Source of the DNA: Thermoanaerobaculia bacterium
GTDB taxonomy: Bacteria; Acidobacteriota; Thermoanaerobaculia; Multivoradales; UBA5704
Reading direction: 5' to 3'
DNA length: 64,000 bases
Assembly: GCA_035637095.1 (NCBI GenBank)
Contig: DASPXX010000345.1
Coordinates: forward strand, 1,660-65,659
Of the stretch, positions 13,802-37,560 are shown piece after piece. The first letter of the stretch is position 1. Every line of letters starts with the position of its first letter. A model generated the notes under the pieces. It ran no database searches. It worked only from the letters and a program-made list of their open reading frames with translations, and was not told the origin of the DNA. The translations under genes and the position numbers were made by a program.

Positions 13802-13930
13802 GCCTCCCAGCCAGGGGCAGGCACAAGGCCCGCCCCTACAGTTGCCAATTACAGCCTCGTGTCCGAGGTCCGTGTAGGGGTACCACCCATCGTCGTTGAT
13901 CTCGCTGTCGCCTCCTCCGGAGGCTTGAGA

Positions 13931-13996
13931 CCGGAGGCGCTCCAGTTCCCGGGGCTCACGCCCCGGGCTAAGCGCCGACGCCCCCTCCGGGGGCTC
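13931..13996. repeat. GC-rich palindromic interspersed element (inverted copy of 14199..14275)
   Basis: Contains hairpins CCCGGGGCtcacGCCCCGGG and CCCCCtCCGGGGG. Its reverse complement aligns with AGCCCCCGAAGGGGGCG...TAGCCCGGGG...CCCCGGGT at 14199..14275. Confidence 0.5.
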
Positions 13997-14002
13997 TCAC
14001 CC

Positions 14003-14504
14003 AGCTCACCCACCGTACAGATCAAGGCAGTTCCGGCCGGGCGGCACGGGCGCGTGGACGGAGATCAGCCGGTTCTTTTACTCGTCGCAATCCCACCGTA
14101 CGGATCAGGGCAGTTCCGACGATAACTACGTCGCGATCGCGGGGAGGCTAGGCAAGTCGCAATCCCACCGTACAGATCAGGGAAGTTGTCGCATCCGAAA
14201 AGCCCCCGAAGGGGGCGACAGAATGTAGCCCGGGGTCAGAGCGACGAAGGAGCAGCGACCCCGGGTAAGGAGCACCCACTCTTTTCCAAGCCCCAGAGGG
14301 GCGGCAGCAGCCTCTCGTCGCAACCGACCACCGTACAGATCAGGGCAGTTCCGGCGCACTGGATCATGTCGGAGCAGATGGCCAACTGAATCACGTCGCA
14401 ATCCCACCGTACAGATCAGGGAAGTTCCAAGGATGAAAGCAGCCGATGGCTGCAACGTCACGATTGAGTCGCAATCCCACCGTACAGATCAGGGAAGTTC
14501 CAAG
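14003..14504 (-). CRISPR. CRISPR array 1 (6 repeats of 37 nt; no cas genes in the window)
   Basis: Repeat as written on the + strand: GTCGCAATCCCACCGTACAGATCAGGGAAGTTCCAAG. Copies: about 14003-14036 (degenerate, partial), 14084-14120, 14156-14187 (truncated after GGAAGTT), 14317-14354 (degenerate), 14395-14431 and 14468-14504 (both exact). Spacers are 35-47 nt and lower in GC. Degeneration at the low-coordinate end and the conserved flank on the right imply minus-strand transcription. In that sense the repeat ends in ATTGCGAC. Confidence 0.85.
14199..14275. repeat. GC-rich palindromic element inserted inside CRISPR array 1
   Basis: Follows the truncated repeat 14156-14187. Contains hairpins GCCCCCgaaGGGGGC and CCCGGGGtcagagcgacgaaggagcagcgaCCCCGGG. 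Confidence 0.5.
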
Positions 14505-14722
14505 GGCGGCCGTTCCAACCCTCTGAGTCCACAGGCACTTAAGTTGGGTCTTTTTATGACCCGGCTCGAAGGTCGTCTCTGCTTCTCGTTTTCCACAGCC
14601 TTTCAGCTCACCTCCTCTCTGGTAACCTCTTGAAGGCCGGGCACTTCCGGTCCTTTTATGATCTCCCCGTCAAAATGGCACTTTGAGGCTGGCATGCTTT
14701 TTGTCTGGCACACCGCTTGCTT
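14505..14722 (-). promoter_or_regulatory. CRISPR leader 1 (conserved with 35694..35910)
   Basis: About 220 nt with roughly 85-90% identity to the flank of array 2. AT-richer patches are present (TTTTTATGA, TTTTATGAT, CAAAATGG). Confidence 0.6.
14706..14721 (+). promoter_or_regulatory. Sigma-54-type -24/-12 promoter motif pointing away from the array
   Basis: TGGCACaccgcTTGCT against the consensus TGGCAC-N5-TTGCW. GG and GC are exactly 10 nt apart. The paralogous site at 35894 keeps both elements while the N5 spacer differs. Confidence 0.45.
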
Positions 14723-14822
14723 CCACTCGGCGACCATGACAGGGCTGCTGCCCAAATAATCCTACTCTCTTTGCCGCGGCTTGGGGAGATCTTCCTCCCC
14801 AGTTCCTCTTCATAGGCCGGAT

Positions 14823-14976
14823 CCCGGCGAGATGCCCGGCTCGTCGCGTTGTTGCTTCAGTTTTCAAAGAGCGCAGGGGATCGGGCGCAGCCTGGCCCCT
14901 CTGACTTCTCTAGACACAGGTTGCCGGCGGATTGTTGGACGCGGCCCAATCTTCCCTCGGCAGGGCGGCCACCGCC
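14823..14976. other. 153-nt conserved non-coding block, copy 1 (paralogue at 36257..36410)
   Basis: About 92% identity between copies. Substitutions do not favour synonymous sites in any frame I checked. A small stem AGGGG...CCCCT is kept with a changed loop. Confidence 0.5.
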
Positions 14977-15007
14977 GGCGTCTCGCCAGGGCGAACACCG
15001 GTCCTCA

Positions 15008-15322
15008 CGGGGCGAAGGCCGGCTGTCTTGGGGCGGAGGCCGGTACTCGCGGGGCGAAGGCGAGGACTGACGGGGCGAACATCGGGACTGACGGGGCGGA
15101 GGCCGGGACTGACGGGGCGAAGCTCATCCCTGCAGGGGGAAAGGCTCCCCCAGGAGGGATGACCTCGTACCCAACAGGGGCGGCCGTCGCCCCTCTTGGG
15201 GGAGCCGTCGCCCCAGCAGGGATGAGCTCGTACCCAGCAGGGGGGACCTCGTACCCGTCAGAGGGGAGCTCGTACCCAGTAGGGGGGAGCTTCCCCCCAA
15301 CACGGGCGGCCGTCATCCCAGA
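15008..15322. repeat. 21-bp phased minisatellite, copy 1 (about 15 units)
   Basis: G-runs start at 15009+21n for n=0..13 with no indel. The first 6 units resemble CGGGGCGRRGGCNGGGACTGA. The later units are GGGG-N-CCCC mini-palindromes (for example GGGGCGgccgtCGCCCC and GGGGGGAgctTCCCCCC). Confidence 0.85.
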
Positions 15323-15396
15323 CAAAACGCGAAGACGCGCGACGCTTCCTTGCTTGCGGCCCATCCGTACCATGGAGCTTGTCGTGCGCCGACACC
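15317..15396 (+). promoter_or_regulatory. Conserved block upstream of precursor A2 (paralogous to 6247..6325)
   Basis: Same sequence block as upstream of A1. It directly abuts the last minisatellite unit. Confidence 0.35.
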
Positions 15397-15424
15397 TTCA
15401 CAACACAAACGTAAGGAGAAGACA

Positions 15425-15568
15425 ATGGAAAACGTTCTCGCCCTCCAGAGCCTGACGTCGATCGCCGATCCCCTCGACGACGAGATGTGCTGGTCGACCT
15501 GCAGCTCCAGCGACTGCAGCTCCTCGTCGGTGTTCGTTCCGGACGCCGGCTGCATCGACAACGGCTAA
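15425..15568 (+). CDS. Class III lanthipeptide precursor A2 (47 aa)
   Basis: This is the C-terminal part of ORF 15350..15568, and an AAGGAG SD precedes ATG 15425. Product: MENVLALQSLTSIADPLDDEMCWSTCSSSDCSSSSVFVPDAGCIDNG. It differs from A1 by V13I, G30D and V44I. Confidence 0.8.
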   Translation: MENVLALQSLTSIADPLDDEMCWSTCSSSDCSSSSVFVPDAGCIDNG

Positions 15569-22158: not shown

Positions 22159-22189
22159 GGGGACCCTCACCCCCTGGGCCCCTCGGTCC

Positions 22190-22585
22190 TCAGGCGGCGG
22201 AGGTCGGCGTGCGGTCGAACTTGCGGTGGAAGGCGCGGTAGAAGGTCTGGGGGTACAGGTAGCCGACCGCCATGGCGACGTCGAAGACAGGGAACCGTTT
22301 TTCGAGCAATCGGAGGGCGGCGTTCAAGCGGAGGGTTTCGATGTATTCCTTGAGGGTGATTCCCAGGACATGCCGGAACCGGCAGGAGATGTTGTTGTCG
22401 CGGATGCGACATCGCCTCTTGATGCTCTGCACGTTGAGATCGGGATCAAAGAGGTTCGCATGGATGTGCTCCAGGACCTCCCGGATCTCGCGCGACAGGT
22501 TGCCGGGCCGGGAGACCTCCGCCAGGAAGCGGTCGAGCTCAGCTTCGATTCCGGAATGATTGAGAGCGATGCTGTTGGTTCTCAT
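22190..22585 (-). CDS. AraC-family HTH transcriptional regulator (short, DNA-binding domain only)
   Basis: ORF 22190..22804 trimmed to MRTNSIALNH... (GAGGAG SD). The HTH region reads ...ISCRFRHVLGITLKEYIETLRLNAALRLL...VGYLYPQTFYRAFHRKF. Confidence 0.7.
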   Translation of the reverse strand: MRTNSIALNHSGIEAELDRFLAEVSRPGNLSREIREVLEHIHANLFDPDLNVQSIKRRCRIRDNNISCRFRHVLGITLKEYIETLRLNAALRLLEKRFPVFDVAMAVGYLYPQTFYRAFHRKFDRTPTSAA

Positions 22586-22646
22586 CGAGCTCCTCGCGTC
22601 ATGAAAAAGCGTTCCCCGGCGGCCGGAGCCGCCGGGGAGGGACTCC

Positions 22647-22844
22647 TCAAGCTGACTCTCCTCCCGCAAACAGATTGCAGGAGTATTGGACACAGTTCGT
22701 CGACTCGTCATTGCCGCCGAGAACCTGCGCCAGAACCGAGTCCACCAGCGCCTCCAGATCCCCCGTCTGGATATCCTGCGCGCCCAGCCGGAATGCGGCT
22801 CCATTCAAACGTACGACCTGCCCAGCACACCAACTCTTTTTCAT
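22647..22844 (-). CDS. Candidate RiPP precursor with double-glycine leader (65 aa)
   Basis: GAGGA SD. Product: MKKSWCAGQVVRLNGAAFRLGAQDIQTGDLEALVDSVLAQVLGG/NDESTNCVQYSCNLFAGGESA. It starts 57 nt downstream of the radical SAM/SPASM gene on the same strand. Confidence 0.55.
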   Translation of the reverse strand: MKKSWCAGQVVRLNGAAFRLGAQDIQTGDLEALVDSVLAQVLGGNDESTNCVQYSCNLFAGGESA

Positions 22845-22901
22845 CGTCAGATCCTCACATCAAAAAACCGCCGGGCCTCCCGGCGGATCATTTCCCGGAG
22901 A

Positions 22902-24404
22902 TCACAGATCGCAGACTTTCTCCCGCAGCGCCACCGGCGCGCCACCGGCCAGGTGCTGCCGGTAGGCCTCGGCGAGGCTGGCCTGGAAACGCGAGGAGAA
23001 TCCATCGCAATAGTTCGAGTTGTACGAGCCGTTGCTGCCCAGGGCCAGCACGGCGCAGCCGCCTCCGCAATGGAGCGCATAGCGGCAGCGGCGGCAGACC
23101 GGATTGCTCGCCACGGTCCGGCTCTGCCAGACCGCGAGCTGCTCCCGGCTCAGCTCCACCTCGCCGTCCGGCAGGACGCGGCCGGTGCGGATCTTGGCAT
23201 CGCCGGTCCGCTCCCAGCAGGAGTAGATGTCACCGAACGGATCGAAGATGTACATGCGGTCGTGGGCGCCGCAGAAGCTCGGCCGCAGGCTCGGGAGGAC
23301 CTCGCCACCGGTGTCGAAGATCCGCCGGGCCCGGGCGCGCAGCCCTTCGTCCGGACGGGAGAGGACCGCGACCTCGGGATGCTCCCCGCGCAGGCGCGTC
23401 AGCTCCCGGTCGAGATCCCAGGTGGAGAACGTCGAGCCGGGGTCGGTCTTGCCGTTCCCGGCGCGCACCGGCGAGGTGTAGGCCGCAAAGCCCGGATGCG
23501 CGGCCCAGCCGCGCGCCGCGAGCTCGCGGGCCACGGCCGGCAGGTCGGCCAGGTTCGTCCGGTCGACGTTGATCCGGAGGCTCACGACCGCGCCCTCTGC
23601 CAGGGCCAGGTCGATCCCCCCGGCGATCCGCTCGTACGAGCCGGAGCCGTCGGCGTAGATCCGCCGGCGGTCGTGCTGCGGCGGCGGTCCGTCGAGGGTG
23701 ATCTGGAGCATGGCGATTCCAACGGGGCCGAGGAGGTCGCGATAGGCGGCGAGCTCGGTCCCGTTGCTCACCGCCCAGACGTCGACCGGTCCCAGGTCGA
23801 AGGCGCGGGCCAGGATGTGCTCCACCACGGGCCGGTTCGCCGCGAGCAGCGGCTCGCCGCCGAAGAACCCGATGTTGCGCCGGTGCCGCGATCCCGGCGC
23901 CACCCCGTGGAGCGCCTCGATCTTCGGCAGTGCCGCAAAGATGCGGTCCACCATCGGAGGCTGCATCGTCCGCAGCAGATGACGCAGGTTGCAGTCGCTC
24001 CGCATGTGATCCTGGTAGCAATACGAGCAGCGCAGGTTGCAGTCGTAGGTCGGCATGAAGATGTAGCTCGGAGGCTGCTGCAAAGCCCGCTCGTGGAGAC
24101 GGGTGGCCAGCCGGCCGAAAAAGGTTTCTTCCTGCTCGCTGCTCAGCTCGGTGAGGTAGCCCTGGGCGCAGAGGTGCTCGATCAGGGAGTCGGACGGATC
24201 GGCGACCGGCTCGGCGGCGTCCGCCTCCTCGCTCCACGCGCCGTAGAGAGGGCTCGCCGCGGTCCTGGCGCCCCGGGACCGCAGGAAGCCGGCCACCCGG
24301 CGAGAAACCTTGTCGTACGCGCCGGTGTATCCGTGGACCAGGAGGACCTCGTCCTCGCTGTCCGGAAGATTGACAAAGATCACGTAACTGCTCATTCGAA
24401 GCAT
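22902..24404 (-). CDS. Radical SAM/SPASM-domain peptide maturase
   Basis: Trimmed to MLRMSSYVIF... (GGGAGG SD). Radical SAM cluster: CNLRCSYC. SPASM motifs: C-x17-C (FCGAHDRMYIFDPFGDIYSC) and CRRCRYALHCGGGC. The N-terminal roughly 100 aa look like a PqqD/RRE-type peptide-binding region (VLLVHGYTGAYDKVS). Confidence 0.8.
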   Translation of the reverse strand: MLRMSSYVIFVNLPDSEDEVLLVHGYTGAYDKVSRRVAGFLRSRGARTAASPLYGAWSEEADAAEPVADPSDSLIEHLCAQGYLTELSSEQEETFFGRLATRLHERALQQPPSYIFMPTYDCNLRCSYCYQDHMRSDCNLRHLLRTMQPPMVDRIFAALPKIEALHGVAPGSRHRRNIGFFGGEPLLAANRPVVEHILARAFDLGPVDVWAVSNGTELAAYRDLLGPVGIAMLQITLDGPPPQHDRRRIYADGSGSYERIAGGIDLALAEGAVVSLRINVDRTNLADLPAVARELAARGWAAHPGFAAYTSPVRAGNGKTDPGSTFSTWDLDRELTRLRGEHPEVAVLSRPDEGLRARARRIFDTGGEVLPSLRPSFCGAHDRMYIFDPFGDIYSCWERTGDAKIRTGRVLPDGEVELSREQLAVWQSRTVASNPVCRRCRYALHCGGGCAVLALGSNGSYNSNYCDGFSSRFQASLAEAYRQHLAGGAPVALREKVCDL

Positions 24405-24580
24405 TGTGACCTCCCCGCTTGGCAACCTGCGCGAAAGGACTTCTGCAAGGGGTGGACCAGGGATGCAAGGAGGTGAAGGAGAGCGAAAAACCTTTCGACT
24501 CGGGTAACGCGCTACTCAACGCGGGTAAGCCCCTACCCCTGCCGGATGGGCGAGCCGTGCCGGAACGCCCCCGGTCTCCC

Positions 24581-24596
24581 TGGCATGCGGGATGCA
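24581..24596 (+). promoter_or_regulatory. Sigma-54-type -24/-12 promoter motif upstream of the ABC-2 operon
   Basis: TGGCATGcgggATGCA has the correct GG-N10-GC spacing. It lies 54 nt upstream of ATG 24650. Confidence 0.45.
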
Positions 24597-24649
24597 GCAA
24601 GCCACGATATACTCCGGCCCCGGAGTACCCTTCCGCGGAAAGACGAGAC

Positions 24650-26251
24650 ATGCTGCGTGCTGTGATTCGAAAGGAATTTCAGTTCCATCTCGCGGGCTTT
24701 CCCCTGCGGGTCGGGACGCTGTTGGCGCTCCTGCTGGCCGCGTCGTCCACGCTGCTCGTCACCCGGGACTACAACCTGCGGCTGGAGGCGTATCGGGACC
24801 GCGTCGCCGCGCATGCGCGCGCGCTTCAGGAGGAGACGGTCTACTCGTACCTGCAGCCGGTCGTGGTCCGCCCGCCGGAGCCGCTCAGCGTGCTGGACCA
24901 GGGCTACGACGCCCAGCTGGGGACCGATGCGACCATCAATCTCTTCGCGGTTCCGGCGGAGGCCACGGGCGGATACCGGGGCAACGAGTTCCTCGTCACC
25001 TCTCCCGCGGCGGACCTCACGGCGATCGTGGCGGTCGTCCTCGGCCTCCTCGCGCTCCTGCTCGCCCACGACGCGGTGGCGGTCGAGCGGGACGGCCAAG
25101 CGCTCTCCGCGCTCCTCGCCTCCGGCCTGCCGCGCCACACCCTGCTCGCCGGCAAGGTCCTGGGCGGTCTGCTGAGCCTGGCGCTGCCGCTCGGCGGGGC
25201 GCTCCTGGTCAGCCTGGCGATCTTCGTCCAGCAGGTCGACGTCGAGCTCTCGGTCCGGCAGTGGTTGCGCGCGGCGGGGCTCGGGGCGGGGTACGTCCTC
25301 TATCTCTCGCTCATGTTCCTTCTCGGCGTGCTCATCTCCCTGTCCTCGCGCAAGCGGTCGCGCGTGCTCGCCCTGGCGGTCGTGATCTGGCTCGCCGCGG
25401 TGGTCGTCCTGCCGGGAGCGGTGCGCACCCTGGTGGCCGATCTCGGGGGTGCGCGCGAGGCCCGGCTGGCCGCGGAGCGCCGCGGCGCCGAGCTCCTCGC
25501 CGAACGGGACCGGCGCCTCGAGGCGGAGCTCCGGCGCGTGCCCCTGCGCGCCGTCTTCAACGGCGACTCGGCCATCTCCTTCGCGAGCGGCGAGAACCGG
25601 GCCGTGCGCTACCGCTACGGATCGGCCGCCTATTACGACGCGCTCAGCGCCTACTACCGCACCGAGGTGGCGCTCGGGATGCGCTATGCTGAGACCGTGT
25701 TCGCCGAGCAGCGGCGCGCCGAGGAGCACCTCAGGGCCGCCGAGAGGCTCGGCCTGATGCTGGGCATGATCTCTCCCGCCGTCCTCCTCGACAACCTGTC
25801 GGAAGAGCTCGCCGGGACCTCGACCGCGGAGTACGACCGCTTCCTCGCGGCCTGCCGGGACTACCGCCTCGCCCTGATCCGCTACTTCGAGGAGCGCAAT
25901 GCGTTCGCGTCCTGGCGCTGGTTCACCGACGATCGTCCGGACCGGCTCCACCCCTGGCCGCTGTTTCTCGGCCTCACGCCCGATGAGGCGCGGCCGGAGG
26001 ACGTCCAGCGGCTCTTCGCACGGCTCGGCGATCCGGAGATCGCGGGCCGGGTGAGCCGCGAGCAGGCCGCCCTGGCGGGCGATCCGGCCCGCCGGCTGCC
26101 GCTGGCGGACATGCCTCGTTTCGTCCCTCCGGGCGCGGGGTTCCTCGAGTGCCTGCGCCGCGGAATCCCCGAGGCGCTCGGGCTCCTGGCCTTCAACCTG
26201 CTGGCCTGGGCCGCGGTCTCGGCGCGCTTCCGGCGATGGTCTCCCCGATGA
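24650..26251 (+). CDS. ABC-2-type permease with long C-terminal extension (DUF3526-like)
   Basis: ORF 24419..26251 trimmed to MLRAVIRKEFQFHLAGFPLRVG. It has multiple TM helices followed by an Arg/Glu-rich helical region and a terminal TM helix. Confidence 0.65.
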   Translation: MLRAVIRKEFQFHLAGFPLRVGTLLALLLAASSTLLVTRDYNLRLEAYRDRVAAHARALQEETVYSYLQPVVVRPPEPLSVLDQGYDAQLGTDATINLFAVPAEATGGYRGNEFLVTSPAADLTAIVAVVLGLLALLLAHDAVAVERDGQALSALLASGLPRHTLLAGKVLGGLLSLALPLGGALLVSLAIFVQQVDVELSVRQWLRAAGLGAGYVLYLSLMFLLGVLISLSSRKRSRVLALAVVIWLAAVVVLPGAVRTLVADLGGAREARLAAERRGAELLAERDRRLEAELRRVPLRAVFNGDSAISFASGENRAVRYRYGSAAYYDALSAYYRTEVALGMRYAETVFAEQRRAEEHLRAAERLGLMLGMISPAVLLDNLSEELAGTSTAEYDRFLAACRDYRLALIRYFEERNAFASWRWFTDDRPDRLHPWPLFLGLTPDEARPEDVQRLFARLGDPEIAGRVSREQAALAGDPARRLPLADMPRFVPPGAGFLECLRRGIPEALGLLAFNLLAWAAVSARFRRWSPR

Positions 26252-27744
26252 GCGGCTCGCCGGCACCGCTCGTCTCGCTCCGGGAGACCCCCGCCGCCGC
26301 GGACCGCGGCTTCCCGGCGCCCGCCGCCGTGGGCAGGCCCCGCCGGGTCGTTGCGACGGTGTTCTGGAACGAGGTGCGGCTGGCGGCGGACAGCATCCGT
26401 CTCTGGGCTCCGGCGGTCCTCCTGGTGGCGTTGATGGTGCTCGCCGCCGTCATCTCCTCCGCGCGGTTCCGGCGGGACGCCGCGGACCAGGCGGGCTCTG
26501 CGAAGGACTATGCCCGGCGCCTGGAAGGAGCCTCGCTCGATGAGCTCTCGGTGCTCCGGTACCCGGCCCTCAAACCTCCCTGGCGTCTCGCCGTGGTCGT
26601 CGAGGGCGGGCAGACCGCGACGCCCGACACCTACGATCAGGTGCTGAGCGCGTTGGAGGAGCCGGAGCTGCGCAGGGCTGCCGGGGAGGATCCGCGCCTG
26701 TCCGGAGCTCCCGCGGTCGATTGGATGCTCGCCATCCGGGTCGTCCTCTCGATCGGCGCCTTCCTCCTCTGCCATGGCGCCATGAGCGGCGAGCGGCGGT
26801 CGGGACGGCTGAAGCTCGTCTTCTCGCTGCCGATCCCGCGCTGGAAGATCCTGGCGGGCAAGTTCCTCGCCGCCTGGTCCTGCCTCGCGGTCCCGTTCCT
26901 CGCCGGCGCCGTGGCCAGCCTTCTCGTCGCCTCCGGCCTCGGCGGCTTCCGCCTCGCGGAGGAGGATCTCGCCCGCGCCGGCCTGGGGGTGCTCCTGGGG
27001 CTCTGGGCGGCGGCGTTCTTCGTGCTCCTCGCCCTGCTCGTCTCCTCGCTGACCCGCGAGCCCTCGACCAGCCTCGGCGTCCTCGCCCTGCTCTGGGTGG
27101 CCGCGGTCATCGTGGTCCCGGCCCTCTCCGTCCTGCTCGCCCGGAGGCTGCAACCGTTCCCGACCCGCGCCGAGGTCAACCAGCGCATGGCCGAGGCCCG
27201 GCAGGAGGCCCGGCGCGAGATCGCCGGGCAGGACGGACGGTGGCGGCCGTCCTCCTGGGCCGCGGCCGACGGGTACGCGTGGGAGAAGATCTCCGCGCGC
27301 GGAGAGAATCGGCGGTCCTTCCTCCAGGAGGAGATCCGCCGCCAGGTCCTCCAGCAGAAGCTGCGGCAGGCGGAGCTGGCCCGCACCCTGGCTTCCGTAT
27401 CCCCGCCGTCGCTCGTCCAGACGATCGCCGAACGGCTGCTCGGCAGCGGCGTCGAGCGGGACCGCGCCTTCCTGACGCAGGCGTGGGTCCTCCGCGCCGC
27501 CATGCGCGAACGGGTGCGGCAGCTCGACGCCGCGGACCCGGAGAGCCCCCACATCCTGTATTTCCATGGCTACATGTCGCAGCGCCCCATCGCGCCCGGA
27601 TCTCTCCCCGGCTTCGCCTTCCGTGAGCGGACTCTGCGCAAGGGCCTGACCTCCACCCGTCCGGCCCTCCTGGCGTTTCTCTTGGAGACGCTTCTCCTCG
27701 CGGCCGCGGCCCTCTTCGCCTTCTCTCGCTATGACGCGGGGTGA
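26248..27744 (+). CDS. Second ABC-2-type permease (DUF3526-like), paralogous architecture
   Basis: ATGA overlap with the upstream gene at 26248; the start could also be 26236. It has the same TM, helical and TM layout. Confidence 0.6.
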   Translation: MSGSPAPLVSLRETPAAADRGFPAPAAVGRPRRVVATVFWNEVRLAADSIRLWAPAVLLVALMVLAAVISSARFRRDAADQAGSAKDYARRLEGASLDELSVLRYPALKPPWRLAVVVEGGQTATPDTYDQVLSALEEPELRRAAGEDPRLSGAPAVDWMLAIRVVLSIGAFLLCHGAMSGERRSGRLKLVFSLPIPRWKILAGKFLAAWSCLAVPFLAGAVASLLVASGLGGFRLAEEDLARAGLGVLLGLWAAAFFVLLALLVSSLTREPSTSLGVLALLWVAAVIVVPALSVLLARRLQPFPTRAEVNQRMAEARQEARREIAGQDGRWRPSSWAAADGYAWEKISARGENRRSFLQEEIRRQVLQQKLRQAELARTLASVSPPSLVQTIAERLLGSGVERDRAFLTQAWVLRAAMRERVRQLDAADPESPHILYFHGYMSQRPIAPGSLPGFAFRERTLRKGLTSTRPALLAFLLETLLLAAAALFAFSRYDAG

Positions 27745-27747
27745 ACC

Positions 27748-28470
27748 ATGATCGAAGCCGTCGACCTCAGCAAGCGCTATCCCAACGGCCAGCTGGCCCT
27801 CGATGCCTTGAACCTCCGGATCGCGCCGGGCGAGATCTACTGCCTGCTCGGGCCGAAGGGCGCGGGGAAGACCACGGTGATCAATCTCTTCCTCGGCCTC
27901 ACCATGCCCACGGCCGGCCGGGCGCTCCTCGGCGGCTGCGACGTGGCGCAGGACCCCCAGGAAGCCCGGCGGCGGGTGGCCTTCCTGTCCGACGGCATGA
28001 CGTTCTACGAGCGGCTCACCGTGCGGCAGAACCTCGAATTCTTCGCCCGGCTGGCCGGACGCTCGCGGGCGGTTTCCGGCGACTGCGAGATGCTGCTGCG
28101 GGAGGTGGGCCTGCCGGAGGCCTCGTTCGATCAGAAGCTGGCCGGGATCGGCACCGGCGCGCTCCGCAAGCTCGGCCTCGCCGTGGCCATGGCCAGGAAC
28201 GCGCCGGCGATCCTGCTCGACGAGCCGCTCTCCGGCGTCGATCCCAAGGCCGCCGCCGAGCTGGTCGAGATCCTGGAACGGCTGCGCGACCAGGGCAAGG
28301 CGCTGCTGATCACCCTCCAGGAGCTGGTCTGGGTCCGCCAGCTCGCCGACCGCGCCGGCTTCCTTCAGGAAGGCCGGCAGGTGCTGGCGCGCACCCGCGA
28401 GGAGCTGCGCTATGAGGACGTCGAACGCCTGTACCTCGACTACACCCGGGGGGGATTGATGGCACGGTGA
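27748..28470 (+). CDS. ABC transporter ATP-binding protein with degenerate catalytic motifs
   Basis: Walker A (GPKGAGKT) and Walker B (ILLDEP) are intact. Other motifs are degenerate: Q-loop Q->D (FLSDG), signature IGTGA instead of LSGGQ, H-loop H->Q (ITLQEL). Confidence 0.75.
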   Translation: MIEAVDLSKRYPNGQLALDALNLRIAPGEIYCLLGPKGAGKTTVINLFLGLTMPTAGRALLGGCDVAQDPQEARRRVAFLSDGMTFYERLTVRQNLEFFARLAGRSRAVSGDCEMLLREVGLPEASFDQKLAGIGTGALRKLGLAVAMARNAPAILLDEPLSGVDPKAAAELVEILERLRDQGKALLITLQELVWVRQLADRAGFLQEGRQVLARTREELRYEDVERLYLDYTRGGLMAR

Positions 28471-28474
28471 GGGC

Positions 28475-29859
<1,385 letters not shown>

Positions 29860-29875
<16 letters not shown>

Positions 29876-31263
29876 GCGGCATTCTCCACGAGCGGCAAGC
29901 GGACCGAAGCCGTGGTACCCCGTCCCTCTTCGCTCTCGAGCTCGATCTCGCCCTGATGCCTCTCGACGATGCCGTGGCAGATGGCGAGCCCGAGACCCGT
30001 GCCATCCCGTTTGGTCGTATAGAAGGGATCGAAGACGCGGCGGACCTGGTCCGGCGGAATGCCCGGCCCGGTGTCGGCGATGCGGACCTGCGCCCAGCGC
30101 GCCCCCGGGCTGCTCGGGGGAGACCAGGAAGCCGCCGCCACCGTGATCCGGCCGCCGCCGGGCATGGACTGCAGGGAATTGAGCAGCAGGTTGAGAAAGA
30201 CCTGCTTGAGCTGGCCCGAATCGCCGCGGACGCGCAGCGGCTCGCTGCCCAGGCGGGCTTCGAGAGCGACCCCCTGCTCGGTTGCGCGGGCCTGCACCAG
30301 ATGGACCGACGCGGAGAGCGGATCGATGAGATCGAATTCCGTCAGATGGAGCTCGCCGGGCCGGCCGAGGCTGAGCAGGCCGCCGACGGTGCCGTTGATG
30401 CGGTCGACCTCGCTCAGCAGCTCGGCCACGAGCTCGTGGTGCGGCTCGTCGGGCGCGAACCCATGCAGGAGGTACTGCATGGTCGAGCGGATCGCCGTCA
30501 GGGGGTTGCGGATCTCGTGGGCCACGCCGGCCGCGAGCTGTCCGACCGCGGCGAGGCGCTCGGCGCGGTGGAGGCGGTCGAGGCGGTCCTGCTGCGCGCG
30601 GTAGAGGGCCGCGTTCTCGAACGCGAGGCTCACCTGCGCGGACAGCAGCTGCAACAGCTCGAGGTCTCTCCCGACCAGCCATCGCCCGGGCCGGTCGCAC
30701 CCCAGGAGGAGGATCCCGGTCAGCCGGTTGATGGAGACCATGGGAACGGCGACGTCGATCCCCAGGCGGCGGAACAGGTCCTGCTCGACCGGGTCGAGGT
30801 AGTCGAAGACCCCCGGCTGGCGATCGCGGACGAAGGAGATCTCGTTGACTTTGAGCCAGCGGGCGAGCTTGCCGCGACCGAGGATCTCGACCCCGGAGAG
30901 CGCGGCGTCCTCGATTCCGAAGGAGAAGCCTGGCCGGAAGACGGCCTCGCCGAGGTCGGGCTCGAGGAAGACGATCCGGTCCGGATCGAACATCTCGCGC
31001 AGGCGCGCGGCCACGCTGGACTCCAGGGCCTCGCGGTCGACGATCAGCGCCAGCGCGCGCCCGAGCTCCTGGAAGGCCCGGCGGTCGACCCCCCGGCGGC
31101 GCCATCGTCCAAAGAGTCCTTCGAAGAGTGGCCACCGTGACTTCAAAGGCTGATCATACCTCCGGCGGCGATCGGGGCCGCCGCGCGTCACCGCTCTCCT
31201 CGTCTCTGCACGGAGGAGGGCCCTTCCCTGGACAACATCCGTATATACGGACCGTGGCTCCAT
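29860..31263 (-). CDS. Sensor histidine kinase (GAF-like input, HisKA, HATPase_c); start uncertain
   Basis: H-box GVAHEIRNPL. N, G1 and G2 boxes: LLLNSLQSM, DTGPGI, GTGLGLAI. It overlaps the response-regulator start by 16 nt. Confidence 0.8.
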
Positions 31264-34948: not shown

Positions 34949-35071
34949 GTACCTAGTATAGCAGAGGCCGTGCGCGGCGGCCCAGGCCGACCGTTCTCGC
35001 GAGTTGGACGTGGTTAGCCGCAATACCGTTCGCTTTGCTGGTTACGCTTGGTTCTTCGGGTGTACCAACAT

Positions 35072-35693
35072 GTCGCAATCCCACCGTACAGATCAGGGAA
35101 GTTTGCGAAGTGCCGGACTGTCCGGCCCAACGGGCCGGGAGAGCCAAGCCCAGGGCATCGAGGCCGCAGGCCGATGCCCTGGGTCAAAAGGCCCCCGCAT
35201 TCCTACGGCCTGAAAGGCCGGGAGAACCTGAACGAAATCGGTAAAATCTCTCGCGACCTTTCAGGCCGCTATCATTGATCGGCTTTCTCTCCCAGGGTGT
35301 CGGCCTACGGCCTCGACCCTGGGCTCCGTTCTCTCGGCCCGTTGGGCCGATTCCTGCCCCCCCACCGTACAGATCAGGGAAGTGGAAGTTCCAAGGGACC
35401 AGGCGGTCTGGCGGCCCACCGGCATGAACCCGTCGCAATCCTACCGTACAGATCAGGGAAGTTCCAAGCAATTCTCTTCAGTATGGACACAACGAGCGCT
35501 CAGAAGTCGCAATCCCACCGTACAGATCAGGGAAGTTCCAAGTGAGACAGAAGCTGTTGGGAATCGTCGCCTTCCTGAAGAAGTCGCAATCCCACCGTAC
35601 AGATCAGGGAAGTTCCAAGAGGTTGAGGCGTTTATCATCAACGATGGCGGAGGTATGTCGCAATCCCACCGTACAGATCAGGGAAGTTCCAAG
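35072..35693 (-). CRISPR. CRISPR array 2 (same repeat as array 1; 6 repeats, one pair interrupted)
   Basis: Repeats: 35072-35103 (truncated after GGAAGTT), 35361-35395 (lacks the first 8 nt and has a 6-nt GGAAGT duplication), 35432-35468 (1 mismatch), then 35506-35542, 35583-35619 and 35657-35693 (all exact). Spacers are 36-40 nt. The leader is on the right. Confidence 0.85.
35104..35360. mobile_element. MITE-like element with about 32-bp terminal inverted repeats, inserted in a CRISPR repeat
   Basis: TIRs: 35124-35155 (GGCCCAACGGGCCGGGAGAGCCAAGCCCAGGG) and 35317-35348 (reverse complement GGCCCAACGGGCCGAGAGAACGGAGCCCAGGG). There are several internal hairpins and no ORF. Confidence 0.5.
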
Positions 35694-35910
35694 GGCGACC
35701 GCGCCAACCCGCTGAGTCTACAGGCACTTAAGTTGGGCCTTTTTACGACCCGGCCCGAAAGCCGTCTCTGCTTCTCGTTTTCCACAGCCTTGCAGCTCAC
35801 CTCCTCTCGGGCAACCCACTGAAAACCAGGCACTTCCGGCATTTTTACGATCCCCCGTCAAAATGGCACTTTGGGGCTGGCATGCTTTTTGTCTGGCATG
35901 TCATTTGCTT
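35694..35910 (-). promoter_or_regulatory. CRISPR leader 2 (conserved with 14505..14722)
   Basis: Aligns end to end with leader 1, including the terminal -24/-12 motif. Confidence 0.6.
35894..35909 (+). promoter_or_regulatory. Sigma-54-type -24/-12 motif, paralogue of 14706
   Basis: TGGCATGtcatTTGCT. Confidence 0.4.
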
Positions 35911-35984
35911 GGGATCAGTGCCACGGTATGGGTCGGACAGTGAGGAACACAGAAGTAATTCTTATCTTCTCCCGCCTCCTGCTG

Positions 35985-36070
35985 GACCGCGAACCCGATC
36001 CAATCACCGCTCACGCGGCGCTCGGCATCCAGCGCGCGATTCCATCCGACGACCCTACCATAACGACCTG
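35985..36070 (+). pseudogene. Fragment of an ADOP-type permease paralogue
   Basis: 36015-36040 is identical (26/26 nt) to 13307-13332 inside the intact ADOP gene. It translates to ...[14 protein letters not shown]... against [14 protein letters not shown]. Confidence 0.4.
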
Positions 36071-36122
36071 GGCAGGCTCCGGCACAGGACGATGATCCGA
36101 TTCCGGCGGCCAAGAACATCGA

Positions 36123-36159
36123 GTCGCAATCCCACAGTACAGATCAGGGCAGTTCCAAG
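36123..36159 (-). repeat. Solitary degenerate CRISPR repeat about 430 nt beyond leader 2
   Basis: GTCGCAATCCCACAGTACAGATCAGGGCAGTTCCAAG has 2 mismatches to the consensus and no neighbouring repeat. Confidence 0.7.
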
Positions 36160-36192
36160 TCAGCGGCAAGTACTTCCCATGTCGCGAAATGG

Positions 36193-36214
36193 AAAAAAAG
36201 GCCCGCGGCCCGCC
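36193..36214 (-). terminator. Possible weak minus-strand terminator (GC stem plus T7)
   Basis: The minus strand reads GGCGGGCCGCGGGCC followed by TTTTTTT. The stem is only 4-5 bp. Confidence 0.3.
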
Positions 36215-36256
36215 TTCTGGGGGAGGCGGAGCCGCGAGGGGCTCGGTGTGCCTGGT

Positions 36257-36410
36257 CCCGGCGAGGCGCCGGGCTCGTCGCGTTCTTGCTTCAGTTTTCA
36301 AAGAGCGCAGGGGATCGGGCGCGGCCTGACCCCTTTGCCTTCTCTAGACACAGGTTGCCGGCGGATTGTTGGACGCGGCCGAATCTTTCCTCGGCAGGGC
36401 GGCCATCGCC
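36257..36410. other. 153-nt conserved non-coding block, copy 2
   Basis: Paralogue of 14823..14976. Confidence 0.5.
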
Positions 36411-36432
36411 CCCGGCGCGTGCCTGGTTCCCC

Positions 36433-36832
36433 TCCGCACGGCGTTCACAGGCCCCGCGACGTGCGCTGCTCCCCTCGCAAGGGCGGCGAGCCCCCTCGGG
36501 ACGTGCGCTGGTCCCCTCGCGAGGGCGACGGCTGCCCTCGCGACGTGCGCCATCGCCCTCGGGACGGCGATGACTCCCCTCGGCACGGCGGCATTCCCCC
36601 TCGCGAGGGCAGCGACGCCCCCCGCGGGGGGAGAGACCGCCCTCCGGAGGGGAGTGACTCCCCCGGCGGGGGGAGTGGCTGCCCCCGGGAGGGGGATGAC
36701 CGCCGTCGCGGGGGCCGTGGTTCCCCTCGCGAGGGAAGTGGTTGCCCTTGCAGGGGCTGCGGCTCCCCTCGCGGGGGGAGAGGCTCCCCTTCCGGGGGAA
36801 ATCGTTCCCCTCTGAAGGGGAGAGGCTGCCGC
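36433..36832. repeat. 21-bp phased minisatellite, copy 2 (about 19 units of CCCC-N-GGGG mini-palindromes)
   Basis: The C-run/T junction falls at 36433+21n (36475, 36496, 36517, 36538, 36559, 36580, 36601, 36643, 36706, 36727, 36748, 36769, 36790, 36811). Example units: CCCTCGCGAGGG, CCCCCCGCGGGGGG, CCCTCCGGAGGG, CCCCTctgaAGGGG. Confidence 0.85.
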
Positions 36833-37164
36833 ACATATCGCAACCATAGTGCTCTCAAGCAAGCCTTCCTCTGAATACAGACTCTCGTGAATCATCCGTT
36901 CGATCATTTCAAAGACCCCCTTGACATCAATACAACAGCCAGGCCAGTATACACGCCGCCGGGAGGAGACGGAAGTCTCGCTCGACGGCGGGGTGCCATG
37001 GAGGCACTCCGTTCAACGGACCCAGGAGGTTCGCCATGAAGAGGCAACACAACGGCATCCGCCGGCCCGGGGCTCTGCGCCTCGGGCCATCCATCAACCC
37101 GTGGCGCGGTGGACGGGACCACCACGCCTGAGGTCGGACTCAACCCCGAGAAAGGAGAGGGACC

Positions 37165-37560
37165 ATGCCCAACAACTCGTCCCGCGCCGATACGGTGGTG
37201 GGCGCCGAGGATCTGCTGGCGGCGGTGGATGGCAATCCCGGGTTGCTGCCGGACATCGGCCGGCACCGGGATCCGGTGGTCGATGCGCTGTCGGAGGTGA
37301 AGTCGCTGAGCATCCAGCAGCAGGCGCTCACGGCGGATCGGCAGAGTGTGACGCAGAAGCTCAAGGCGGCGACCCGCAAGCTCAAGGATCTGACGATGCA
37401 CCTGCGGGCGGCCGTGCGGGCCGACATCGGCATGCGCAATGAGAAGCTCGTGCAGTTCGATGTGGCGCCGCTGCGTCCGCGCCCGCGCAAGCCGAAGCCG
37501 GCTGAGCCCGAGGCTGCGAAGTCGCCCGAGGCCGGGGCGGCGAAGCCGGCCGAGCCGTGA
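37165..37560 (+). CDS. Hypothetical coiled-coil protein with Pro/Lys/Ala-rich tail
   Basis: GAAAGGAGAGGG SD and strong GC3 bias. I recognised no family. Confidence 0.65.
   Translation: MPNNSSRADTVVGAEDLLAAVDGNPGLLPDIGRHRDPVVDALSEVKSLSIQQQALTADRQSVTQKLKAATRKLKDLTMHLRAAVRADIGMRNEKLVQFDVAPLRPRPRKPKPAEPEAAKSPEAGAAKPAEP

What the first reader, a model, noticed from the sequence alone, without database searches (positions are those of the whole stretch)
36433..36832. Strict 21-bp phasing maintained across about 34 highly diverged GC mini-palindrome units in two loci
Seen in sequence: in locus 2 the C-run/T junction recurs at 36433+21n through 36811. In locus 1 G-runs start at 15009+21n for 14 units. 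No net indel occurs, although unit sequences have diverged almost completely within and between loci. Most units are C4-5/N3-6/G4-5 palindromes (CCCTCGCGAGGG, CCCCCCGCGGGGGG, GGGGCGgccgtCGCCCC). The first six units of locus 1 are G-run-only (CGGGGCGAAGGCGAGGACTGA type). Twenty-one bp equals 7 codons, and it also equals two turns of B-DNA. Because all six frames stay open and the peptide repeats are not conserved between loci, coding constraint is not an obvious explanation. Alternative hypotheses, all inference: (a) an array of about 20 RNA mini-hairpins acting as a protein sponge or scaffold, with every + strand unit carrying GGGA/GGA, reminiscent of CsrB/RsmZ-type decoys; (b) same-face DNA binding sites for an oligomerising protein, like an iteron or centromere; (c) a G-quadruplex/i-motif-prone tract in the G-only units.
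Basis: partly seen in the sequence, partly recalled or inferred. Interest (0 to 1): 0.7.

Follow-up and report, generated by a model that had tools for sequence, protein, structure and literature searches.

The report
Helix-phased 21-bp palindromic repeat arrays
Two non-coding stretches in this soil acidobacterium (class Thermoanaerobaculia) are arrays of 21-bp units that keep their spacing of exactly two DNA helical turns while their sequence drifts; they belong to an apparently undescribed, lineage-wide family of intergenic repeats that most likely acts as structured or protein-binding DNA rather than as a gene or a small-RNA sponge.

Summary
The core observation is real. Window 36388-36828 holds 21 units and 14989-15324 holds 16 units. 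Both are in a strict 21-nt register with no slip, far beyond chance.

The arrays are non-coding. No frame is open across related arrays, and codon usage is atypical. They belong to a family I found in at least eight Thermoanaerobaculia genomes, one Aminicenantes genome, and a few Chloroflexota and Verrucomicrobiota genomes. The shared design is [..CCCY]-N4-[RGGG..]-N3-9, with two dyads per unit. G3/C3 blocks therefore recur every 10.5 bp on alternating strands.

Orthologues of locus 2 (neighbouring gene 76-78% identical) keep the array, its register and roughly its length at only 64-72% array identity. Indels are whole units or compensated pairs. A strain variant of locus 1 lacks exactly 2 units. 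Arrays are dispensable: one is missing from an 85%-identical relative.

Best reading (confidence 0.4): a BIME-like extragenic lattice constrained at the duplex-DNA level, either phased protein binding or anisotropic bending. Rivals are an RNA hairpin array (0.22) and a selfish minisatellite (0.25). The CsrB-like, iteron/centromere, G-quadruplex and coding readings fail their tests.

The parts
36388..36828 (.). Locus 2 array: 21 units of 21 bp. Consensus is CCCTCGCGAGGG plus a 9-nt linker (S-A/G-G-N-G-R-C-T-S). Two dyads per unit.
   Evidence: Orthologous arrays are in L144 and L150.
14989..15324 (.). Locus 1 array: 16 units of 21 bp. Six are G-run-only units (14989-15114, GGGCGRAGGCCGGNACTSACG). 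Ten are units of GGGG-N9-CCCC-N4 type (15115-15324).
   Evidence: The strain variant P0002 lacks exactly 42 nt (2 units) and has no other change.
36254..36387 (+). Block B, locus 2 copy: conserved non-coding block that runs straight into the array. Its last ~21 nt already look like a unit. It starts with a terminator-like hairpin (36259-36280).
   Evidence: About 93% identical to the locus 1 copy. No frame has synonymous-only changes. Terminator-like site. A diverged homologue sits upstream of the L150 and L144 arrays.
14820..14988 (+). Block B, locus 1 copy.
35694..35909 (.). Block A, locus 2: CRISPR leader-like block. It carries a sigma-54-type motif TGGCAT-N5-TTGCT at 35894-35909 that points toward the 21-nt array.
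   Evidence: Conserved in L150.
14506..14721 (.). Block A, locus 1: the same leader-like block. Sigma-54-type motif TGGCAC-N5-TTGCT at 14706-14721.
35068..35693 (-). Degenerate CRISPR array (37-nt repeat) next to block A of locus 2. A further solo repeat lies at about 36119-36159.
   Evidence: An intact 6-repeat array sits at the same place in L150.
14001..14505 (-). Degenerate CRISPR array next to block A of locus 1.
36921..36952 (+). Conserved promoter-like motif TTGACA-N21-TATAC between the array and the downstream operon. It places the array upstream of the likely transcription start of that operon.
   Evidence: Conserved in the window, L144 and L150, and partly in L005 minus strand. The sigma-70-type promoter scan did not call it.
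37036..37131 (+). Conserved 31-aa small ORF with a GGAGG ribosome-binding site. It is the first gene downstream of the locus 2 array and is followed by the 131-aa gene at 37165-37560.
   Evidence: Substitutions among orthologues are mostly synonymous.

Best explanation
What is shown:
- Both tracts are non-coding members of a lineage-specific family of extragenic tandem arrays, found mainly in class Thermoanaerobaculia and in Aminicenantes (phylum Acidobacteriota).
- The unit is a 21-bp palindromic lattice. A 4-7-bp block (..CCCY) and its reverse complement (RGGG..) alternate, separated by a short and a longer variable spacer.
- Every unit therefore has two dyad axes about 10.5 bp apart, and G3/C3 tracts recur once per helical turn on alternating strands.
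- Arrays grow and shrink by whole units.
- Arrays are gained and lost at individual loci.
- Arrays keep their 21-bp register while their sequence drifts.

What I infer:
- The constraint acts on duplex DNA. The array is a helically phased platform on which all dyads lie on roughly one face of the helix.
- It either binds a cooperatively oligomerising, dyad-symmetric DNA-binding or architectural protein, or it supplies strongly anisotropic bendability for wrapping.
- This is analogous to REP/BIME clusters of enterobacteria. Hairpins that form when the array is transcribed would then be a by-product.
- In this window the arrays close off a duplicated module: CRISPR array, then leader with a sigma-54 promoter, then block B, then the array. 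In locus 2 the array sits upstream of the promoter of the next operon. A role as a boundary or insulator between transcription units is therefore plausible.
For: Phase:
- Zero register changes occur in 37 window units. About 10 changes occur in 244 units of 17 arrays, several of them compensated or at array ends.
- This holds despite only 58-72% identity at lag 21 in the diverged hairpin-type arrays.

Orthologues:
- L144 and L150 (neighbouring gene 76-78% identical) keep an array of about 25 units at the same place and in register.
- Array identity is only 0.64-0.72.
- Gaps are 21 nt, or sum to 21 nt, or come as +n/-n pairs within about 15 nt.
- Flanking non-coding blocks show about 1 indel per 5-40 substitutions, commonly about 1 per 10. 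By that rate roughly 10-15 uncompensated indels would be expected in each array comparison.
- Palindrome length varies (11-14 nt) with an opposite change in linker length (10-7 nt), so only the sum is fixed.

Helical period:
- A strand-symmetric G3+/C3+ tract indicator peaks at exactly 10.5 bp (z 30-71 in seven arrays, 8-19 in L144, L150 and L005). It has little or no power at 10 or 11 bp (z below 4) in 10 arrays from genomes of 44-70% GC.

No RNA-type asymmetry:
- G:T and A:C mismatches are about equally frequent.
- Folding z-scores are alike on both strands for locus 2 (-6.1 and -6.4) and strong on both for locus 1 (-8.2 and -6.0).
- Position 4/9 varies as Y/R without covariation in L150 and only weakly in the window.
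- Flanking-gene contexts are about 2 convergent, 2 divergent and at least 6 tandem, with no fixed orientation.

Period preference is not just ascertainment:
- In unbiased TRF scans, the only incidental arrays in Acidobacteriota loci have period 42 (2 of 2).
- Only 3 of 50 incidental arrays in loci of other phyla have a period that is a multiple of 21.

Not coding:
- No lattice frame is open in more than 7 of 10 arrays.
- Codon-usage score is -1.2 to -1.7, against -0.7 to -0.9 for real genes.
- The called 330-aa ORF has only array-derived relatives among 5.8 billion proteins.
Against: - No binding protein is identified, and nothing in the window encodes an obvious partner.
- The arrays are dispensable. 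The whole locus 1 module is absent from a relative whose glycosyltransferase is 85% identical. The locus 2 array is absent from a 64%-identical relative.
- The CCC and GGG tracts are spaced 9/12 (locus 2) or 13/8 (part of locus 1) rather than 10.5/10.5, so 'same face' is only approximate.
- Orthologous units are not clearly more alike (0.62) than paralogous units within one array (0.58-0.68). Turnover by duplication could therefore contribute to phase retention.
- A conserved sigma-54-type promoter points into the arrays of this window. Several family members lie 10-50 nt after stop codons. Both facts suit an RNA or terminator role.
- My genome scan used a 21-nt pattern, so the family census is biased toward that period.
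Confidence: 0.4

Rival explanations
1. RNA-level element. The arrays are transcribed, here from the conserved sigma-54-type promoter in block A or by read-through from neighbouring genes. They fold into about 20 short GC hairpins or long fold-back helices. These would act as a terminator or insulator, as a 3'-end stabiliser like REP hairpins, or as a protein-binding scaffold.
For: - Folding is strongly better than shuffles on either strand (z -6 to -8).
- A conserved sigma-54 motif points toward the arrays in locus 1, locus 2 and L150.
- Several family members start 10-50 nt after a stop codon or fill the gap between convergent genes, as in L109, L124, L005 and L020.
- Some arrays show covariation at the fourth stem pair: L032 has 12 Watson-Crick pairs against 6.7 expected, with smaller excesses in L062 (6 against 3.6) and W_l2 (15 against 12.4).
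- Hairpin clusters are reported to terminate transcription in bacteria (PMC8355165, seen).
Against: - Hairpins do not need a fixed 21-nt period, yet indels are compensated so that only the sum is kept.
- There is no G:U versus A:C asymmetry and no consistent orientation to genes.
- Covariation is absent or reversed in L150.
- A terminator-like hairpin at the start of block B may already stop the sigma-54 transcript.
- In locus 2 the array lies upstream of the conserved promoter-like motif of the next operon.
- No Rfam family matches.
- The CsrA-type A(N)GGA motif is in only 1-2 units.
Confidence: 0.22
2. Selfish or neutral minisatellite. A quasi-palindromic 21-bp seed, such as the end of block B, expands and contracts by slippage or unequal exchange in whole units. 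The register is a by-product of how units are made. The array has no function for the cell.
For: - Whole-unit polymorphism: P0002 differs by minus 2 units with no other change.
- Indels of 21 and 42 nt occur between orthologues.
- Arrays are present or absent among close relatives.
- The two paralogous modules have 88-93% identical flanks but completely different arrays, so turnover is fast.
- There is no clear unit-by-unit orthology.
- Placement among convergent, divergent and tandem intergenic regions looks random.
Against: - Units within an array are only 45-68% identical, so most are old enough to have collected indels at the rate seen in flanks. Yet the register holds, and indels come in compensating pairs.
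- The same lattice and period recur from 44% to about 70% GC and across classes and phyla with different block sequences.
- Incidental arrays in these lineages also have period 42.
Confidence: 0.25
3. A heptad-repeat protein is encoded: 21 nt equals 7 codons. Gene callers predicted a 330-aa ORF at 35882-36874 and a 224-aa ORF at 14781-15455.
For: - The period is a multiple of 3.
- Long ORFs exist, and gene callers annotated them.
Against: - No lattice frame is open in all related arrays (at most 7 of 10).
- L083 has only one open frame, and that frame is closed in the window and in L020.
- Codon usage is far from that of real genes.
- Block B substitutions are non-synonymous or hit stops in every frame.
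- The part of the called 330-aa ORF from block B to its end (206 aa) was searched. It has no homologues apart from other array-derived ORFs, and those ORFs carry no Pfam domain.
Confidence: 0.02
4. The arrays are plasmid-type iterons or a partition centromere, or the G-only units of locus 1 form a G-quadruplex or i-motif switch.
For: - A period of 21-22 bp is typical of iterons (own knowledge).
- Locus 1 has G-runs every 21 nt, and units at 15072-15114 have extra GGG tracts.
Against: - Units are dyad-symmetric and only about 60% alike.
- There are 16-25 units.
- There are no rep, parA, parB or parR genes in the window.
- The arrays are chromosomal and occur at many loci.
- There is no canonical G4 motif with loops of 7 nt or less. 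Only three overlapping matches appear with loops up to 12 nt.
- G-only units are not a family feature.
Confidence: 0.04

Closest known systems
REP clusters / BIME-2 of Escherichia coli (bacterial interspersed mosaic elements). Features are from my own knowledge. REP super-families tagged GTAG or CGTC are from PMC3733652, seen.
   Same: - Extragenic and non-coding.
- Built of palindromic units in alternating orientation with fixed linkers, hence strictly periodic.
- Variable copy number.
- Often located after genes.
- Proposed to act both as DNA (gyrase or IHF binding) and as RNA hairpins.
   Different: - The unit here is 21 bp with 4-7-bp arms, against about 35-40-nt REPs and a period of about 100 bp.
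- There is no GTAG or CGTC tag.
- No RAYT transposase is seen in the window.
- The period equals exactly two helical turns.
- The host is Acidobacteriota.
- Whether single dispersed units exist could not be tested.
Plasmid iterons and partition centromeres (for example the R6K 22-bp iterons, F sopC with 12 x 43 bp, pSK41 parC with 4 x 20 bp). From my own knowledge.
   Same: - Tandem units of about two (or four) helical turns, so that bound proteins line up on one face.
- Cooperative filament-like binding.
   Different: - Those repeats are few, nearly identical, and sit next to rep or par genes on plasmids or phages.
- Here there are 16-25 diverged dyad-symmetric units at many chromosomal intergenic sites, with no such genes nearby.
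Tandem ARG boxes of ArgR operators (18-bp palindrome plus 3 bp, centre-to-centre 21 bp). From my own knowledge.
   Same: The geometry is identical to the lattice in some family members, for example L083: CTGCCCT-N4-AGGGCAG (18 bp) plus N3.
   Different: - ARG boxes are AT-rich.
- They occur as 1-2 pairs in promoters of arginine genes.
- An argR gene lies next to the orthologous gene in L147/L148, where the array is absent. I treat this as coincidence.
Hairpin-cluster intrinsic terminators (PMC8355165).
   Same: - Several adjacent GC-rich hairpins in inter-operon regions.
- Some family members lie between convergent genes.
   Different: - Those clusters are 2-4 aperiodic hairpins.
- Here there are up to 25 units with a fixed period and no strand polarity.
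CRISPR arrays.
   Same: - Partly palindromic repeats at a regular spacing.
- In this window the 21-nt arrays lie 0.5-0.9 kb from CRISPR leaders.
   Different: - There are no unique spacers.
- The period is 21 nt rather than about 60-75 nt.
- Other family members are not next to CRISPR arrays.

Membership tests
CsrB/RsmZ-type CsrA decoy RNA | Many A(N)GGA / GGA motifs exposed in hairpin loops on the transcribed strand | tested here: not met
   A(N)GGA occurs in 1 of 21 units (locus 2) and 2 of 16 units (locus 1). Plain GGA occurs in 10 of 21 and 11 of 16 units. It is as frequent on the minus strand in locus 2 (11 of 21) but not in locus 1 (5 of 16). It is largely absent in relative L083.
CsrB/RsmZ-type CsrA decoy RNA | Match to a curated RNA family | tested here: not met
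   No Rfam hit at gathering score in the whole window. At E up to 10, locus 2 gives only hits far below each family's gathering score, mostly eukaryotic miRNA precursors.
CsrB/RsmZ-type CsrA decoy RNA | CsrA homologue in the genome | not testable with these tools
   Only a 64-kb window was available. None of the 40 scanned ORFs is CsrA.
Plasmid iterons | Near-identical direct repeats of 17-22 bp, typically 3-7 copies | tested here: not met
   The period is met, but units are dyad-symmetric, 58-64% identical at lag 21, and number 16-21.
Plasmid iterons | Adjacent rep gene and an AT-rich unwinding element | tested here: not met
   Pfam scans of the neighbours show no Rep protein. The flanks are GC-rich conserved blocks.
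Partition centromere (parS / parC / sopC) | Linked parA/parB or parM/parR genes | tested here: not met
   None is found in the window.
REP / BIME | Extragenic palindromic units in alternating orientation forming periodic clusters | tested here: met
   Two dyads per unit in 10 arrays. Arrays are intergenic in all contexts examined.
REP / BIME | Conserved GTAG or CGTC tag at one end of the palindrome (PMC3733652) | tested here: not met
   No consistent tag. GTAG is in 0-1 units of most arrays, and CGTC/GACG is irregular.
REP / BIME | Many dispersed single copies in the genome, and an associated RAYT transposase | not testable with these tools
   No whole genome is available. No Y1 transposase is found in the window.
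CRISPR array | Repeats separated by unique spacers of similar length | tested here: not met
   The 21-nt units abut one another with no spacers. Genuine CRISPR repeats lie separately at 14001-14505 and 35068-35693.
Heptad-repeat protein gene | One reading frame open and conserved across relatives, with host codon usage | tested here: not met
   The best lattice frame is open in 7 of 10 arrays. Codon score is -1.2 to -1.7, against -0.7 to -0.9 for genes.
G-quadruplex motif | Four G3+ tracts with loops of 1-7 nt on one strand | tested here: not met
   Zero matches. With loops up to 12 nt there are three overlapping matches at 15072-15084.

The most novel reading that the evidence does not exclude
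Acidobacteriota carry a genome-wide class of positioning sequences. These are 300-500-bp DNA lattices whose G/C blocks are locked to the 10.5-bp helical repeat by selection. They would wrap or nucleate a filament of an unidentified architectural protein, acting as chromosomal boundaries or supercoil barriers between transcription units. That would be a bacterial counterpart of nucleosome-positioning or insulator DNA.
Probability: 0.2. Interest if true: 0.8.

Novelty: new variant of a known kind. Interest (0 to 1): 0.55.

Why it matters
Bacterial extragenic repeats (REP/BIME, MIRU and others) are known, but their constraints are usually on sequence or hairpin. Here the conserved quantity is the period itself: 21 bp, or 2 x 10.5 bp. 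It is held across orthologues, classes and a range of about 44-70% GC while the sequence turns over.

If that reflects selection on duplex geometry, it gives a tractable handle on DNA-structure-based chromosome organisation in a major but poorly studied soil phylum. The handle is a defined array that can be re-phased as a control.

It also has a practical use. These arrays are routinely mis-called as 200-330-aa 'hypothetical proteins' in metagenome annotations, and they are hypervariable markers that change by whole units.

Tried and rejected
- Block B as a family anchor. A 22-mer scan of genome contigs found nothing. A 20-mer scan of metagenome contigs gave 17 hits, all chance (only 20-29 nt aligned). 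blastn of blocks A and B against all fetched loci found nothing. Block B turned up only in the orthologues reached through the neighbouring protein.
- Viral contig scans with block B and the CRISPR repeat gave nothing or one chance hit.
- RNA folding of block B on either strand is no better than shuffles (z -1.1 to 0).
- Rfam gave nothing.
- The 131-aa neighbour as a candidate binder. One homologue is labelled 'terminase Nu1' by JGI, but there is no Pfam or PHROG support, and the arrays occur elsewhere without it.
- The link to CRISPR. The adjacency is conserved only at this locus and its paralogue, not in the family.
- The sigma-54 enhancer idea. No comparable motif lies near other family arrays.
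- Unit-by-unit orthology. The diagonal signal is too weak to claim.
- Literature searches for 21-bp hairpin tandem repeats, for Acidobacteriota histones and for helically phased repeats found no description of this element.
- One NCBIfam call failed on a coordinate error and was not repeated.
Full report
**1. Source and setting**

The window is part of a soil-metagenome contig (JGI 3300012360, Ga0137375_10000069). An identical copy exists in an ENA assembly. NCBI names its proteins as belonging to a Thermoanaerobaculia bacterium MAG, phylum Acidobacteriota. GC content is 68%.

**2.

- Printed in rows of 21, locus 2 is 21 consecutive units (36388-36828), each beginning CCC(T).
- Locus 1 is 16 units (14989-15324): six G-run-only units, then ten units of GGGG-N9-CCCC-N4 type.
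- Neither array changes register.
- Lag-21 identity is 0.58 and 0.64. The maximum in 1000 shuffles is 0.416.
- Fourier z-scores at period 21 are 49 and 25.
- No other part of the 64-kb window reaches 0.55.

- Not all six frames are open. Locus 2 has stops in three of six frames, and locus 1 also has stops.
- GGA is present in only 10 of 21 and 11 of 16 units. It is as common on the other strand in locus 2 but not in locus 1.
- Several unit positions are invariant or nearly so, so the sequence has not diverged almost completely.

**3. Anatomy of the two loci**

The two loci are paralogous modules. Reading left to right on the plus strand, each has:
- a degenerate CRISPR array (37-nt repeat; most perfect copies on the right);
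- a conserved leader-like block A (88% identical between loci), containing a sigma-54-type motif TGGCAC-N5-TTGCT that points rightward;
- a variable segment;
- a conserved non-coding block B (about 93% identical) that starts with a terminator-like hairpin;
- the 21-nt array, which begins where block B ends. The last 21 nt of block B already resemble a unit.

The arrays of the two modules share nothing but the period. There are no cas, rep, par, csrA or Y1-transposase genes in the window. An NtrC-type activator and a histidine kinase lie between the loci.

Downstream genes:
- Locus 1 is followed by a RiPP-type precursor and its modification and export genes.
- Locus 2 is followed by a conserved promoter-like motif, a structured leader, a conserved 31-aa ORF and a 131-aa protein of unknown function.

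**4. Not a gene**

- Gene callers turned the arrays into 200-330-aa 'proteins'.
- Searching the translated block B plus array portion (206 aa) of the locus 2 ORF against 5.8 billion proteins returned three hits: itself, a strain variant of locus 1, and one other array-derived ORF.
- Across ten related arrays, no frame defined relative to the lattice is open in more than seven. L083 has a single open frame, which is closed in the window and in L020.
- Codon usage in all six frames (-1.2 to -1.7) is far from that of window genes (-0.7 to -0.9).
- Block B differences between the paralogues are non-synonymous or hit stops in every frame.

**5. A family**

The array-derived hit led to L005, a 23-unit array in another assembly (GCA_036674845.1), again strictly phased.

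I then scanned one genome per GTDB species with the pattern (CC-N6-GGG-N10) x5. Most are high-identity, probably coding, repeats in Actinomycetota and other groups. The diverged, dyad-symmetric ones cluster taxonomically:
- Thermoanaerobaculia MAGs: L019, L020, L032, L083, L089, L094, L109, L124;
- one Aminicenantes MAG at 44-47% GC: L104, L111;
- single Anaerolineales, Chloroflexota and Spartobacteria MAGs: L062, L022, L074.

The common design is [block]-N4-[reverse-complement block]-N3-9. Examples:
- CTGCCCT-N4-AGGGCAG-N3 in L083;
- CCCCT-ACTT-AGGGG-N7 in Aminicenantes;
- CCCAA-N2-TTGGG-N9 in L062.

Each unit thus has two dyads about 10.5 bp apart.

**6. What is conserved is the period**

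A strand-symmetric indicator (base lies in a G3+ or C3+ run) has a sharp Fourier peak at 10.5 bp (z 30-71 in seven arrays, 8-19 in three). Power at 10 or 11 bp is essentially absent.

Over 17 arrays and 244 units there are about 10 register changes. Several of them are reversed within two units or lie at array ends. Palindrome length varies from 11 to 14 nt with an opposite change in the linker, so only the sum of 21 is fixed.

Orthologues of locus 2 were reached through the 131-aa protein.
- L144 (76% identical) and L150/L151 (78%) have the same layout: a CRISPR array (intact in L150), then block A with the sigma-54 motif, then a diverged block B, then a 25-unit array, then the promoter-like motif, then the small ORF.
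- The arrays are 64-72% identical.
- Their gaps are 21 nt, or sum to 21 nt, or are +n/-n pairs a few bases apart.
- Neighbouring conserved non-coding blocks show roughly one indel per ten substitutions (range about 1 per 5 to 1 per 40).
- By that rate each pairwise array comparison should contain about 10-15 uncompensated indels. I found none.

A strain variant of locus 1 (P0002) is identical except for a 42-nt (two-unit) deletion.

The period preference is probably not only an ascertainment effect. In unbiased TRF scans of the fetched loci, the only incidental arrays in Acidobacteriota loci have period 42 (2 of 2). Only 3 of 50 incidental arrays from other phyla have a period that is a multiple of 21. 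The sample is small.

**7. Turnover and dispensability**

- The more distant orthologue (64% identical, L147/L148) has no array.
- In L153, whose glycosyltransferase is 85% identical, the MacB-type gene is followed after 230 nt by the precursor gene. The whole 1.45-kb module of locus 1 is missing, and homology resumes exactly at the right end of the array.
- The two window modules have near-identical flanks but unrelated arrays.
- Orthologous units are barely more alike than paralogous ones.

The arrays are therefore hypervariable and not essential at a given locus.

**8. DNA or RNA?**

In favour of RNA:
- Both strands fold far better than shuffles (z -6 to -8), mostly as long fold-backs, because a two-dyad lattice is self-complementary about every dyad.
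- A sigma-54 motif points into the arrays of this window.
- Several family members start 10-50 nt after stop codons or fill the gap between convergent genes.

Against RNA and in favour of duplex DNA:
- Hairpins do not require a fixed period, yet indels are compensated.
- G:T and A:C mismatches are equally common, so no strand is preferred.
- The fourth stem pair varies as Y/R without covariation in L150 and only weakly in the window, though it covaries in L032 and L062.
- Orientation relative to flanking genes is not fixed, and contexts look like random intergenic placement: 2 convergent, 2 divergent, at least 6 tandem.
- In locus 2 and its orthologues the array lies upstream of the conserved promoter-like motif and structured leader of the next operon.

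I therefore commit, at 0.4, to a duplex-level explanation: a helically phased lattice that binds a cooperatively oligomerising dyad-symmetric protein or provides anisotropic bendability. It would be functionally akin to REP/BIME clusters and possibly serve as a boundary between transcription units. The binding partner and any phenotype are inferred, not shown.

**9.

- CsrB-like sponge. The motif premise is false, there is no Rfam match, and the motif is absent from relatives.
- Iteron or centromere. The geometry is similar, but the defining features are not met. Those features are near-identical direct repeats and linked rep or par genes.
- G-quadruplex. There is no canonical motif. Only a long-loop candidate exists at 15072-15084.

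**10. Novelty**

Four full-text searches found no description of such arrays. The closest known kind is the REP/BIME class. The element differs in several ways:
- unit size;
- lack of GTAG/CGTC tags;
- host phylum;
- above all, conservation of a period equal to two helical turns.

I rate it a new variant of a known kind, of moderate interest.

**11. Unexplained points**

- Why the arrays of two modules with 88-93% identical flanks share no sequence.
- What the conserved block B does.
- Why the sigma-54 promoter faces away from the CRISPR array.
- Whether the TTGACA-N21-TATAC motif, found next to arrays in two unrelated gene contexts (the locus 2 operon and the TIR-domain gene of L005), is a promoter linked to the arrays.

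Noticed in passing
window 14001-14505, 35068-35693, ~36119-36159: Two degenerate orphan CRISPR arrays and one solo repeat (37-nt repeat GTCGCAATCCCACCGTACAGATCAGGGAAGTTCCAAG). The window has no cas genes. The orthologous locus L150 (759-1176) has an intact 6-repeat array.
   Followed up: partly
window 14706-14721 and 35894-35909 (also L150 ~1375-1391): A conserved sigma-54-type promoter motif TGGCAC-N5-TTGCT lies inside the CRISPR leader-like block. It points away from the CRISPR array. An NtrC-type activator (28475-29875, minus strand) and a GAF histidine kinase (29860-31263, minus strand) lie between the two loci.
   Followed up: partly
window 15425-15568 and 6591-9293, 15640-28470: RiPP gene cluster. 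It has a 47-aa Cys/Ser-rich precursor-like ORF (MENVLALQSLTSIADPLDDEMCWSTCSSSDCSSSSVFVPDAGCIDNG), a GT4 glycosyltransferase, M16 peptidases, ABC transporters and a radical SAM enzyme. A RamC-type (class III/IV) lanthipeptide synthetase lies upstream. In relatives L154 and L155 the synthetase sits next to 1-3 precursor copies.
   Followed up: partly
window 37036-37131: Conserved 31-aa small ORF (MKRQHNGIRRPGALRLGPSINPWRGGRDHHA) with a GGAGG ribosome-binding site. It is preceded by a conserved leader in which one hairpin shows a compensatory change between orthologues (GTGCC..GGCAC versus GCGCC..GGCGC).
   Followed up: partly
window 36921-36952; L005 2060-2106 (minus strand): The bipartite motif TTGACA-N21-(CCAG)TATAC is conserved between the array and the downstream gene. 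It occurs in the locus 2 orthologues and also upstream of an unrelated TIR-domain gene in L005. The spacing is too long for a standard sigma-70 promoter.
   Followed up: partly
window ~13930-14000, 14195-14300, 35120-35230; L005 1770-2050; L150 590-700: MITE-like GC-rich palindromic elements (for example GGGGCTCACGCCCCGGGCT... and GCCCCCGAAGGGGGCGAC...) recur around the CRISPR arrays and in related assemblies.
   Followed up: no
window ~13850-15318 versus L153 1618-1780: The whole locus 1 module (MITE-like elements, CRISPR array, block A, block B and the 21-nt array) is an insertion or duplication relative to a relative whose glycosyltransferase is 85% identical. The right junction coincides with the end of the 21-nt array.
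   Followed up: yes
L104 201-536: The Aminicenantes locus carries an AT-rich tandem array of period 42 nt, 230 nt from its 21-nt array. L019 6293-6580 is another period-42 palindromic array.
   Followed up: partly
window 59576-61375 (minus strand); L005/L006, L020: TIR-domain genes recur near arrays. A TIR-NB-ARC-WD40 gene lies downstream of the L005/L006 array. In L020 the start codon of a TIR gene lies about 48 nt from the array. The window also has a TIR_2-domain protein.
   Followed up: no
window 37493-37556: A 24-nt tandem repeat lies inside the 131-aa gene. It encodes a Pro/Ala/Glu/Lys-rich C-terminal tail (..KPKPAEPEAAKSPEAGAAKPAEP).
   Followed up: no
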